Shown one piece after another: positions 1,623-3,212 of a stretch of DNA of 64,000 nt. Every line of letters starts with the position of its first letter. Position 1 is the stretch's first letter. The position numbers and the translations under genes are program-made. The notes under the pieces are model-generated. The model searched no databases and had not been told where the DNA came from. It was given only the letters and a program-made list of their open reading frames with translations. The DNA is taken from the NCBI GenBank assembly GCA_964577395.1, contig CAZNYQ010000008.1, forward strand, positions 57,319-121,318, in the 5' to 3' direction. This DNA is from an uncultured Candidatus Saccharibacteria bacterium. GTDB lineage: Bacteria; Patescibacteriota; Minisyncoccia; JBAYJV01.

Positions 1623-2564
1623 ATGAAAGAAAATATTAATAAAAATATTAAAAAAGGCGAAATAATAATTTATAAATCTCTAAAAGGACCAGAAATTCAA
1701 GTAAAACTTGATAAGAATACTGTTTGGTTAAATGCTCATTTAATAGCTGATCTTTTCGACGTTCATCGTCCTGCTATAGTTAAACATATTAATAATATAT
1801 ATAAATCAGGTGAGTTGAATAAAAAAACAACCTGTTCCAAAATGGAACAGCTTGCTGCTGATAACAAAATCAGAAAAATAAACTTATATAATCTAGATAT
1901 GATTATTTCTGTAGGTTAAAGTATTTAATTAAAGGATACGCTATAAAAAAAACAGCTTCTTCAGGCTCGCAATCAACTAAAAGATTTAAAAGAAACTGTT
2001 TCTTTGCTTGAAAAAAACTAAAAATAAAATACTTGCTGGGTAAGTTAACGAAATATTAAGTTTATTAGCAAATTACGCTAAGACCTTAAGCTTACTTGAA
2101 CAATATGACAAGGAAAAATTATCGTTAGTTAGAAAGGTTAAAGGAAAATATATCCTGCACTACAATGAAGCAAAAAGAATTATTAGCCAAATCAAAAAGA
2201 ATTAATTGACAGAAAAGAAGCAAGTAACTTATTCGGACAAGAAAACAACAACAAATTAAAAGCAATTTTAGGAAATATTTGTCAATCATTTAATGGTAAA
2301 AAAATATATTCTTCATTAGAAGAAAAAGTTGCATATCTTCTTTATTTTATAATTAAAGATCATCCTTTTGTGGATGGTAATAAAAGGATTGCTTCTATTC
2401 TCTTTATCCATTCTCTAGATAAAAATGATTATCTCTATAAGGCGAGTGGAGGAAAAAAGATTAATGACAATGTTCTAGCTACAATAGCGCTTTTAATTGC
2501 AATAAGTAATCCTGATGAAAAAGGTAAGTTTATTAAATTAATAACTAACTTACTTATTTCCTAA
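1623..2564 (+). pseudogene. RhuM-family / Fic-Doc (Fido) protein, disrupted by frameshifts and stops
   Basis: 1623-1919 encodes a RhuM N-terminal domain (KGEIIIY...VWLNAHLIADLF...KHINNIYKSGEL...YNLDMIISVG) and then hits a stop. The continuation (GYAIKK...) is in another frame. 2182-2564 in a third frame encodes the Doc/Fic core ...LLYFIIKDHPFVDGNKRIASILFI... Confidence 0.75.
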
Positions 2565-2571
2565 AATTAAA
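2518..2571. repeat. Direct repeat copy A (about 54 bp), 3-prime end of the Fic/Doc remnant
   Basis: aaaaaggtaagtttattaaattaataactaacttacttatttcctaaaattaaa, repeated at 3158-3212 with 3 substitutions and 1 indel. Confidence 0.85.
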
Positions 2572-2630
2572 ATTAGCTATTAAACTAAATAGGTTTCAAA
2601 AAACTCATAGTTGGACTAATTACAATTCAA

Positions 2631-3167
2631 GTGAATTTAATGCCAAATAATATAAAAAACAATATAGGATTAAATATTATAAATTTATTTTTAGATTACG
2701 TTAAACATCTTTTCCTAACAGGAACAATAATTCTGCATTTGGCTGTCTTAATATTTATCTTATCAAATATAAATCCTGATTTTTCATTTAGCTTCCTTAA
2801 ATTTATACCAACTATTGGCTCTCAATATAAGACAGGGACTTTTAACATGGGTATAGAAGATATTACAAAAATCTTTCTAATCATATCTTTTTTGTTATGG
2901 ATTTTTATTTCTTTGATTAGAGTCGGATTGAAAAAAACATTAAAAATTAATATAATTATTTCTCTAAAATATAAAATAATTTTATCTTTTGTAGCTATTA
3001 GTTTAATATATATCTCTGCCTCAAAGATAGTCATATCAAATAGTGCTTTAAATGAGATTTTTCATTTCACTTTTATCATTTTCTATATTATTAACCTTTT
3101 CTTATCAGCAGGATATTTTTTATTAGATTCTTTATCAAGAAAAATTTTAAAATTTACAAAAAGATAA
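2631..3167 (+). CDS. Hypothetical polytopic membrane protein (about 5 TM)
   Basis: 178-aa ORF, extremely Ile/Leu/Phe-rich with several hydrophobic helices. It sits exactly between the two repeat copies. Confidence 0.5.
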   Translation: MNLMPNNIKNNIGLNIINLFLDYVKHLFLTGTIILHLAVLIFILSNINPDFSFSFLKFIPTIGSQYKTGTFNMGIEDITKIFLIISFLLWIFISLIRVGLKKTLKINIIISLKYKIILSFVAISLIYISASKIVISNSALNEIFHFTFIIFYIINLFLSAGYFLLDSLSRKILKFTKR

Positions 3168-3212
3168 GTTTATTAAATTAATAACCAACTTACTTATTTC
3201 CTTAAAATTAAA
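3158..3212. repeat. Direct repeat copy B
   Basis: caaaaagataagtttattaaattaataaccaacttacttatttccttaaaattaaa. It overlaps the stop codon of the 2631-3167 ORF. Confidence 0.85.

What the first reader, a model, noticed from the sequence alone, without database searches (positions are those of the whole stretch)
2518..3212. About 55-bp direct repeat brackets a single membrane-protein gene inserted at the 3-prime end of the Fic/Doc remnant
Copy A (2518-2571) supplies the last codons and stop of the Fic/Doc reading frame. Copy B (3158-3212) is nearly identical, with 3 substitutions and 1 indel, and overlaps the stop of the 178-aa polytopic membrane ORF. A gene 3-prime end duplicated so that a roughly 640-bp cassette sits between the copies is the footprint of site-specific integration or cassette capture that regenerates the target gene end. 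The cassette carries a single, extremely hydrophobic protein and no recombinase.
Basis: seen in the sequence. Interest (0 to 1): 0.55.

Follow-up and report, generated by a model that had tools for sequence, protein, structure and literature searches.

The report
Membrane gene inserted with duplicated target
A single small membrane-protein gene sits between two 55-base copies of the tail of a dead RhuM/Fic defence gene in an uncultured small-genome bacterium; this is a real example of an already described, still unexplained way for genes to be inserted ("insertion with long target duplication"), not a new kind of element.

Summary
Two 55-bp direct copies (2518-2572 and 3158-3212; 2 substitutions and 1 indel) with sharp edges bracket about 585 bp. 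That interval holds one intact gene for a 175-178-aa four-helix membrane protein.

- **Copy A** is the native, family-conserved C-terminus and stop of a decayed RhuM/Fic gene (PADLOC PDC-S23 type).
- **Copy B** is the same 15-codon tail out of context. It supplies the membrane ORF's last two codons and its stop.
- **Not an artefact:** the structure is base-identical in independent assemblies from five samples.
- **Not an orphan:** an exhaustive HMMER search finds 42 homologues of the membrane protein (up to 43% identity), in unrelated gene contexts.
- **No mobility signals:** I found no recombinase, terminal inverted repeats, attC motifs or further repeat copies.
- **No empty site:** all available contigs are clonal, and the nearest genomes lack the whole interval.

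In metagenomic loci the RhuM/Fic gene itself is bracketed by locus-specific 18-70-nt direct repeats in 14 of 59 cases. These repeats often span the start or stop of a neighbouring gene.

My best reading (confidence 0.5) is recombinase-independent "insertion with long target duplication" (Nobusato 2000; Furuta 2010). The rivals are an att-site integration remnant, a templated patch at a rearrangement junction, and Campbell-type integration. This is a new member of a known kind, of modest interest.

The parts
1623..2564 (+). RhuM/Fic (PADLOC PDC-S23-type) pseudogene; the insertion target
   Evidence: Colinear with intact 331-336-aa RhuM/Fic proteins over residues 4-329. It carries about a 60-nt internal deletion and many stops and frameshifts between about 1917 and 2190. 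Pfam Fic E = 1.9e-9 for 2187-2561. PADLOC PDC-S23 E = 1.4e-45 for the C-terminal part and 8e-28 for the N-terminal part. The HPFVDGNKR motif is retained.
2518..2572 (+). Direct repeat copy A: last 15 codons and stop of RhuM/Fic, plus about 8 nt
   Evidence: Encodes EKGKFIKLITNLLIS*, conserved across 18 homologues.
2524..2553 (+). Imperfect palindrome inside copy A (GTAAGTTTATTAA / TTAATAACTAACTTAC)
   Evidence: RNA fold dG = -10.8 kcal/mol, z = -3.1. In copy B the same stretch gives only -3.9, z = -0.6. In the fold G2524 is paired and T2546 lies in an internal loop next to the stem; neither change is compensated. A function is not shown.
2573..3157 (+). Unique 585-bp segment between the repeats (the putative insert)
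   Evidence: Sharp loss of identity at both repeat edges. GC is about 20-23%, against 32.3 +/- 2.7% for long genes of the window. No terminal inverted repeats. No Fic-like remnant other than copy B.
2640..3167 (+). Gene for a 175-aa (178 aa from GTG at 2631) four-helix membrane protein of an uncharacterised family
   Evidence: Positive coding score only in this frame. 42 homologues at E <= 1e-3, the best 43% identical over the full length. AlphaFold2 mean pLDDT 90.6, with four long helices. No match in Pfam, PHROGs, PADLOC or PDB. The last two codons and the stop lie in copy B.
3158..3212 (+). Direct repeat copy B: the Fic tail out of context
   Evidence: tblastn finds QKDKFIKLITNLL as a second hit to the Fic C-terminus. 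It keeps the family-consensus Asp codon (GAT) where copy A has GGT. An extra T removes the Fic stop.
3320..3913 (+). Downstream 197-aa gene (context only, not part of the insert)
   Evidence: Homologues at <= 64% identity sit in unrelated contexts.

Best explanation
About 585 bp of DNA carrying one intact gene for a four-helix membrane protein was inserted into the extreme 3' end of a RhuM/Fic (PDC-S23-type) defence gene. The event duplicated 55 bp of the target, so the Fic tail now lies on both sides of the insert. [quoted passage not shown]

Shown:
- The two copies have sharp edges and are unique in the sequence available.
- Copy A stays in frame and preserves the native Fic C-terminus and stop.
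- Copy B is the same coding tail stranded in non-coding DNA. The membrane ORF reads 8 nt into it to reach its stop.
- The insert holds no mobility gene and has no terminal repeats.

Inferred:
- That both copies come from one target, rather than from two Fic genes or an att site.
- The order of events. Copy A's Asp-to-Gly change and copy B's extra T would be later neutral decay. The pseudogenisation of RhuM/Fic is of comparable age.
- The molecular mechanism. The possibilities are incoming DNA joined at a widely staggered break with fill-in, or a replicative template switch. It is unknown for the whole class.

The membrane protein's function is unknown. Nothing links it functionally to Fic.
For: - Repeat anatomy and significance.
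- Copy A is the conserved Fic C-terminus. Copy B is detectable as a Fic tail and is the only other Fic-like remnant.
- No recombinase, attC motif or terminal inverted repeat. No further copies of the repeat.
- The membrane gene family occurs in unrelated contexts elsewhere: next to uL15, or next to ParA and VWA genes. This shows the gene relocates.
- The same architecture recurs around the neighbouring gene type. 14 of 59 full-length RhuM/Fic loci have 18-70-nt direct repeats at 88-100% identity, with a different sequence in each locus.
- Controls for that count: 0 of 590 shuffles and 8 of 175 mismatched locus pairs, Fisher p = 7e-5.
- In four loci (L055, L065, L069, L083) the repeats span the start of the downstream long gene. 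In L113 and L035 they span the start or 5' part of the downstream reading frame, and in L043/L063 the stop of the upstream gene.
[quoted passage not shown] One example is a 46-bp repeat overlapping 15 bp of a gene's 3' end.
Against: - No empty site was found, so target duplication is inferred and not demonstrated.
- The insert is not an R-M gene, whereas the published class was defined on R-M genes.
- The repeat contains a 13-bp-arm imperfect palindrome that could be a protein-binding site.
- In two RhuM loci (L035, L061) one repeat copy is an isolated fragment without native context on either side. That does not fit simple target duplication, and it opens the 'templated patch' rival for the window too.
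- The low GC of the insert is partly a family trait. Homologous genes are also below their contigs' GC, so it is weak evidence of foreign origin.
Confidence: 0.5

Rival explanations
1. Site-specific integration. The 55 bp are attL and attR of a small integrative element or trans-mobilised cassette, or the remnant of a larger element that lost its integrase. Its attP mimics the Fic 3' end and so regenerates the gene end.
For: - The identity block of about 55 bp at a gene's 3' end is within the range known for tyrosine-integrase att sites (general knowledge).
- Sharp repeat edges.
- An imperfect palindrome inside the repeat.
- The 5% divergence between copies could be an original attP/attB difference.
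Against: - No recombinase lies in the 585 bp, and none is detectable by tblastn in 71 kb.
- The sequence is absent from the viral and metagenome contig collections.
- The palindrome has a 1-nt centre, or 7-bp arms with a 16-nt spacer, unlike core-type sites with 6-8-bp spacers (read from the sequence). It is degraded in copy B.
- The analogous repeats around RhuM genes are target-specific and variable in length, not a constant att.
Confidence: 0.15
2. No cassette insertion took place. The membrane gene is the native downstream neighbour of RhuM/Fic. Copy B is either a 55-nt templated patch copied from 640 bp upstream at a rearrangement junction (a deletion, or the insertion of the whole RhuM-membrane block), or the last remnant of a second Fic gene whose body was deleted.
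For: - In L035 and L061 one repeat copy flanking RhuM is an isolated 39-45-nt fragment of a neighbouring gene, while the other copy has native context on both sides. Such stranded fragments therefore do arise at RhuM-associated junctions.
- PMC3457768 discusses a multi-step duplication and recombination route to the same 'repeat-insert-repeat' pattern.
- The membrane ORF ends by reading into copy B, as expected if its 3' end was cut at a junction.
Against: - It needs more events than a single insertion.
- No other Fic-like remnant lies upstream of copy B.
- None of the membrane-gene homologues examined lies next to a Fic gene.
- The two repeat edges are equally sharp.
Confidence: 0.2
3. Campbell-type integration. 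A circular DNA that already carried a Fic tail plus the membrane gene, excised from a donor where the two were adjacent, recombined by homologous recombination with the resident Fic tail and so duplicated the 55-bp homology.
For: - It gives exactly the observed repeat-insert-repeat structure.
- Copy B keeps the family-consensus Asp codon that copy A lacks, which is compatible with a separate origin.
- Carry-over of flanking fragments with RhuM in L035 and L061 shows that imprecisely excised units move.
Against: - 55 bp is a short substrate for RecA-type recombination (general knowledge).
- No donor arrangement (Fic tail next to a membrane-gene homologue) was seen in any locus.
- The closest Fic homologues in the databases are only 74% identical in protein. 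A donor tail 95% identical in DNA, including 8 nt past the stop, would have to come from a very close relative.
Confidence: 0.1
4. Chance similarity in AT-rich DNA, or an assembly artefact.
For: - The region has about 20% GC, where short repeats are common.
- One assembly (JGI 3300077522) breaks at this point.
Against: - 0 of 100 shuffles give even two matches to the 37-nt core. BLAST E = 7.5e-19.
- The sequence is identical in independent assemblies of five samples made with different pipelines.
- The copies differ at 3 positions, so they cannot be a collapsed or duplicated read path.
Confidence: 0.02

Closest known systems
[quoted passage not shown] 2000, Gene 259:99; Furuta et al. 2010, PMC2853133)
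   Same: - Direct repeats over 30 bp flank an inserted gene.
- The repeat is unique in the genome.
- There is no integrase or transposase and there are no terminal inverted repeats.
- The repeat spans the stop codon of the target gene, so the target ORF stays intact. The paper's H. influenzae case has a 46-bp repeat overlapping 15 bp of a gene's 3' end.
- The insert's GC is lower than the genome's.
- The target lies in a defence-gene neighbourhood.
   Different: - The insert is a small membrane-protein gene, not an R-M gene. Single non-R-M and short DNAs are mentioned only in PMC3457768.
- The host is an uncultured Patescibacteria-like organism.
- No empty-site genome is available, which the published cases all had.
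Integrative elements that target a gene's 3' end and regenerate it (tyrosine-integrase attL/attR)
   Same: A duplicated gene 3' end of tens of bp brackets foreign DNA, and the target ORF is preserved.
   Different: There is no integrase, no other element genes, only 585 bp of cargo, and no attP-bearing relatives. The related repeats around RhuM genes are not constant in sequence.
Integron gene cassettes (attC)
   Same: A single, promoter-poor ORF is flanked by a repeated site that contains an imperfect palindrome.
   Different: There are no RYYYAAC / GTTRRRY motifs, no intI or attI, and no cassette array. The repeat is a piece of coding sequence from the neighbouring gene.
RhuM/Fic single-gene candidate defence system (Pfam PF13310 + PF02661; PADLOC PDC-S23), often embedded in R-M operons
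   Same: The target gene matches PDC-S23 over both halves and keeps the HPFxDGNKR Fic motif. An EcoRI-type methylase, GmrSD and an AAA_15/21 ATPase lie 3-7 kb upstream.
   Different: Here the gene is a pseudogene and is not adjacent to mod/res genes.

Membership tests
Insertion with long target duplication (criteria of Furuta et al. 2010, PMC2853133) | Direct repeats longer than 30 bp flank the inserted DNA | tested here: met
   55 bp, 52/55 identical counting one indel, with sharp edges.
Insertion with long target duplication (criteria of Furuta et al. 2010, PMC2853133) | The repeat is not a multi-copy element of the genome | tested here: met
   Only two copies in the 64-kb window plus 7.4 kb upstream, and none in the viral or metagenome collections. 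The rest of the genome was not available.
Insertion with long target duplication (criteria of Furuta et al. 2010, PMC2853133) | No mobility gene (integrase or transposase) in or beside the insert | tested here: met
   The only credible ORF is the membrane protein. tblastn with a Patescibacteria tyrosine integrase was negative. No terminal inverted repeats. Serine recombinases and transposases were not searched systematically.
Insertion with long target duplication (criteria of Furuta et al. 2010, PMC2853133) | An empty site in a related genome holds one copy of the repeat | tested here: inconclusive
   All 10-11 contigs from five samples are clonal and filled. The nearest genomes (FtsA 69-70% identity) lack the whole YbaK-YbeY interval. 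Homologues of the 197-aa neighbour lie in other contexts.
Insertion with long target duplication (criteria of Furuta et al. 2010, PMC2853133) | The insert contains R and M gene homologues (the paper's screening criterion) | tested here: not met
   The insert encodes only a 4-TM protein with no Pfam or PADLOC match. This criterion defined that paper's screen rather than the mechanism. PMC3457768 states the mechanism is recognised for 'other DNAs' too.
Site-specific integrative element (attL/attR) | A recombinase gene within or adjacent to the element | tested here: not met
Site-specific integrative element (attL/attR) | The same att sequence recurs with the element in other genomes, or as attP | tested here: not met
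   No exact match to the 28-nt core in metagenome contigs or viral contigs. Membrane-gene homologues are not flanked by repeats.
Integron gene cassette | An attC site with RYYYAAC ... GTTRRRY core sites | tested here: not met
   Neither motif occurs on either strand of either copy +/- 10 nt.
Integron gene cassette | intI integrase and a cassette array nearby | tested here: not met
   No tyrosine recombinase hit and only two repeat copies.
RhuM/Fic, PADLOC PDC-S23 (the target gene) | N-terminal RhuM region plus C-terminal Fic domain with the HPFx[D/E]GNxR motif | tested here: met
   PDC-S23 models match both parts. Pfam Fic E = 1.9e-9. HPFVDGNKR is present.
RhuM/Fic, PADLOC PDC-S23 (the target gene) | An uninterrupted reading frame of about 312-336 codons | tested here: not met
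   Multiple in-frame stops and frameshifts plus about a 60-nt deletion between 1917 and 2190. It is a pseudogene.

The most novel reading that the evidence does not exclude
The window's repeat may be one footprint of a general, recombinase-free way of inserting genes that is active around RhuM/Fic defence genes in Patescibacteria-like and other uncultured bacteria. The process would duplicate 18-100 bp of target, usually across a start or stop codon. It would also sometimes carry fragments of the previous site along, as with the res 5' pieces that travel with RhuM in L035 and L061. [quoted passage not shown]
Probability: 0.3. Interest if true: 0.55.

Novelty: new member of a known kind. Interest (0 to 1): 0.3.

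Why it matters
- **For this genome:** the finding explains a stranded piece of Fic coding sequence. It also shows that a small membrane-protein gene of an uncharacterised family is a recent arrival beside a decaying defence gene.
- **For the mechanism:** it adds a non-R-M, single-gene example from an uncultured small-genome bacterium to 'insertion with long target duplication', whose mechanism is still unknown.
- **Side result:** about a quarter of the RhuM/Fic genes sampled are themselves bracketed by target-derived repeats. This gene family may therefore be a convenient natural system for working out the mechanism.
- **Limits:** no new kind of mobile element is indicated, and the protein's function remains unknown.

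Tried and rejected
**Empty-site search**
- FtsA-anchored scan of 185,579 species genomes. The two closest genomes (69-70% identity) have a CCA-adding enzyme gene upstream of YbeY and no RhuM, membrane or 197-aa genes.
- Homologues of the 197-aa neighbour (<= 64% identity) sit in unrelated contexts.
- Exact-protein look-ups for the membrane protein, the 197-aa protein and YbaK returned only clonal, filled contigs. The 64-aa Fic-tail ORF is not on record.

**Other copies of the repeat**
- None in the window, the 7.4-kb upstream flank, metagenome contigs or viral contigs.
- The metagenome collection evidently does not hold the source samples, so that negative result is weak.

**Orphan-gene idea**
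- The word-indexed search found only the protein itself.
- The exhaustive HMMER search overturned this with 42 hits.

**Function of the membrane protein**
- No hit in Pfam, NCBIfam-independent PHROGs, PADLOC, the PDB sequence profile, or Foldseek against PDB.
- The afdb50 library was unavailable. An NCBIfam call failed on a coordinate error and was not repeated.

**Other ideas tested**
- Terminator idea: the hairpin is significant in copy A but lost in copy B, and the consensus scan calls no terminator there.
- Foreign-composition argument: weakened, because homologous genes are also below their contigs' GC.
- Direct repeats around the window's own RhuM pseudogene: none.
- tRNA or Rfam elements as integration targets: none in the window.

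Full report
**1.

The repeat finder reports one outstanding direct repeat in window 1-8000: 2518-2572 and 3158-3212, 640 bp apart. In register the copies differ by G/A at 2524/3164, T/C at 2546/3186 and one extra T in copy B after TTTCC. Identity falls to the chance level (about 32%) immediately outside both ends.

The 37-nt core occurs exactly twice in 64 kb. No dinucleotide shuffle out of 100 gives even two matches, and a local BLAST gives E = 7.5e-19.

The region is base-identical in contigs from four JGI metagenomes and one Logan assembly. Assembly artefact and chance are therefore excluded.

**2. What the two copies are**

Frame-by-frame translation, and tblastn with intact homologues, show that 1623-2564 is a full-length but broken RhuM/Fic gene. 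It is colinear with 331-336-aa proteins. It has about a 60-nt deletion and many stops and frameshifts between about 1917 and 2190.

It matches Pfam Fic and, over both halves, the PADLOC candidate defence family PDC-S23.

Copy A encodes EKGKFIKLITNLLIS plus the stop. In 18 homologues the C-terminus is EKDKLIKIITNLLxx, so copy A is the native gene end.

Copy B, read in the equivalent frame, is KDKFIKLITNLLIS. It keeps the consensus Asp codon where copy A has Gly, and it has lost the stop through the extra T. tblastn finds it as the only other Fic-like piece in the region. Copy B is therefore a stranded piece of Fic coding sequence.

**3. What lies between the copies**

The 585 bp hold one credible ORF, 2640-3167 (or 2631 from a GTG start).
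- Its codon score is positive only in that frame, though lower than for host genes. Its GC is 21.5% against 32.3 +/- 2.7%.
- The word-indexed protein search found only the protein itself. The exhaustive HMMER search then found 42 homologues at E <= 1e-3. The best are 35-43% identical over the full length and 170-187 aa long. The gene is real and belongs to a small uncharacterised family.
- AlphaFold2 with the family alignment gives a confident model (pLDDT 90.6) with four long helices. Hydropathy also gives four transmembrane segments.
- Homologues sit in unrelated contexts: after uL15, or between a ParA-like gene and a VWA gene. None is next to a Fic gene and none is flanked by repeats.
- Their GC is also below that of their contigs, so the low GC here is partly a family trait.
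- The ORF's last two codons and stop lie inside copy B.

**4. Signals of a dedicated mobility system are absent**
- No recombinase lies in the segment. tblastn with a Patescibacteria tyrosine integrase finds nothing in the window or the 7.4 kb upstream.
- There are no terminal inverted repeats and no attC core motifs.
- The window holds no tRNA or Rfam feature.
- No further copy of the repeat occurs in the window, the upstream flank, or the viral and metagenome contig collections.
- The repeat contains an imperfect palindrome that folds significantly in copy A (z = -3.1). The two substitutions weaken it in copy B (z = -0.6) without compensation. It is not called as a terminator.

**5. No empty site could be obtained**

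The closest genomes (FtsA 69-70% identity, labelled Saccharibacteria MAGs) have different genes upstream of YbeY. Homologues of the 197-aa neighbour are <= 64% identical and lie elsewhere. All exact-protein look-ups return the same clonal, filled locus.

**6. Evidence from related loci**

I fetched 80 metagenomic loci that encode Fic homologues. None has its Fic tail duplicated downstream.

However, 14 of 59 full-length RhuM/Fic genes are themselves bracketed by direct repeats of 18-70 nt at 88-100% identity, with spacing of 1.04-1.44 kb. The controls gave 0 of 590 shuffles and 8 of 175 mismatched locus pairs.

The repeat sequences differ from locus to locus and come from the neighbours:
- the first 10-30 codons of the downstream long gene in L055, L065, L069 and L083 (an 870-982-aa gene, read here as type III res, where the contig is long enough), and the start of the reading frame after RhuM in the short contig L113;
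- part of the mod 5' region (L035);
- the 3' end plus a palindromic, terminator-like sequence of the upstream gene (L043/L063, about 70-100 nt).

L043/L063 is the exact counterpart of the window's structure, with RhuM as the insert.

In L035 and L061 a res 5' fragment travels with RhuM. One repeat copy there is an isolated fragment, so not every case is a simple target duplication.

**7. Comparison with what is known**

Furuta et al. 2010 (PMC2853133), following Nobusato et al. [quoted passage not shown] Its features are:
- repeats over 30 bp that are unique in the genome;
- repeats that often span the start or stop codon, so that the target gene stays intact;
- examples that include a 46-bp repeat overlapping 15 bp of a gene's 3' end;
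- single-gene inserts such as mcrA.

[quoted passage not shown] It also sets out a multi-step alternative of duplication followed by recombination.

The window's structure meets the anatomical criteria. It fails only the R-M-content screen, and it lacks the empty-site proof.

**8. Verdict**

The most likely explanation (0.5) is a single insertion of the membrane-gene segment into the RhuM/Fic 3' end with a 55-bp target duplication, followed by neutral decay.

The rivals are:
- an att-site integration remnant (0.15);
- copy B as a templated patch or second-Fic remnant at a rearrangement junction, with the membrane gene native (0.2);
- Campbell-type integration of a donor circle (0.1);
- artefact or chance (0.02).

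This is a new member of a known kind, and interest is modest. The more useful lead is the side observation that RhuM/Fic genes are frequently bracketed by target-derived repeats.

**9. Unexplained**

In sample 3300077522 the assembly breaks here. One contig ends at window 3283 and the next starts at 3157. The 127-nt overlap begins one base to the left of copy B. A simple empty-site allele would predict 3158, not 3157. This needs the reads or the assembly graph.

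Noticed in passing
L035, L043, L052, L055, L061, L063, L065, L069, L079, L083, L099, L104, L105, L113 (coordinates): In 14 of 59 metagenomic loci the full-length RhuM/Fic (PDC-S23) gene is bracketed by locus-specific 18-70-nt direct repeats. These are often the duplicated 5' end of the downstream res or mod gene, or the 3' end of the upstream gene. Controls gave 0 of 590 shuffles. The pattern suggests that this single-gene defence cassette moves by insertion with long target duplication.
   Followed up: partly
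L035:1519-1653 and L061:6373-6402: A truncated res 5' fragment (44 codons in L035, about 9 codons in L061) follows the RhuM stop, although no res gene follows it. It looks as if a piece of an earlier insertion site was carried along. In both loci one copy of the new flanking repeat is an isolated fragment without native context.
   Followed up: partly
window 3157-3283; L004/L123 end, L121 start: In JGI sample 3300077522 two contigs end and start here with a 127-nt overlap whose left edge is 1 nt left of copy B. All other assemblies run through. This may be population heterogeneity at the junction, or coincidence.
   Followed up: partly
window 641-1033: A non-coding gap between the HAD hydrolase and YbaK-like genes has locally high GC (about 43% in 451-750, against a window mean of 31%) and several GC-rich stretches. 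ARAGORN finds no tRNA and Rfam finds no family.
   Followed up: no
L001:2266-6278 (1.1-5.1 kb upstream of window position 1): A defence cluster lies just upstream of the window: an EcoRI-type methylase, GmrSD (type IV restriction) and an AAA_15/AAA_21 ATPase. The RhuM/Fic pseudogene is thus at the edge of a defence island interspersed with housekeeping-like genes.
   Followed up: no
L053, L060, L073, L074, L088, L108 (14 nt) and L109 (21 nt), 20-40 nt before the Fic stop: The conserved Fic tail codons (K-I-I-T-N-L/F) form perfect short palindromes at the DNA level in many AT-rich homologues. The window has a different, longer palindrome in the same tail. Whether this is codon-usage coincidence or a DNA/RNA signal is unknown.
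   Followed up: no
L096:616-646 and 1152-1182: Immediately after a Fic gene, a 31-nt stretch that contains a start codon (MPEREKF...) recurs 536 bp downstream at the contig end. This is either tandem paralogues or another start-codon-spanning duplication.
   Followed up: no
L094:6379-6409 and 10862-10892 (also the flanks in L043/L063): GC-rich repeated sequences (for example ...CACCTTTCGGCtccgctcggggcgagagctcag...) recur kilobases apart in otherwise AT-rich contigs that carry Fic genes. They may be a dispersed repeat family.
   Followed up: no
window 3320-3913: The 197-aa protein downstream of copy B has an N-terminal transmembrane segment followed by a coiled coil, and weak PHROGs matches to Rz-like spanins (E = 4e-4). 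One source labels a homologue as pseudopilin PulG. Its function is unclear.
   Followed up: no
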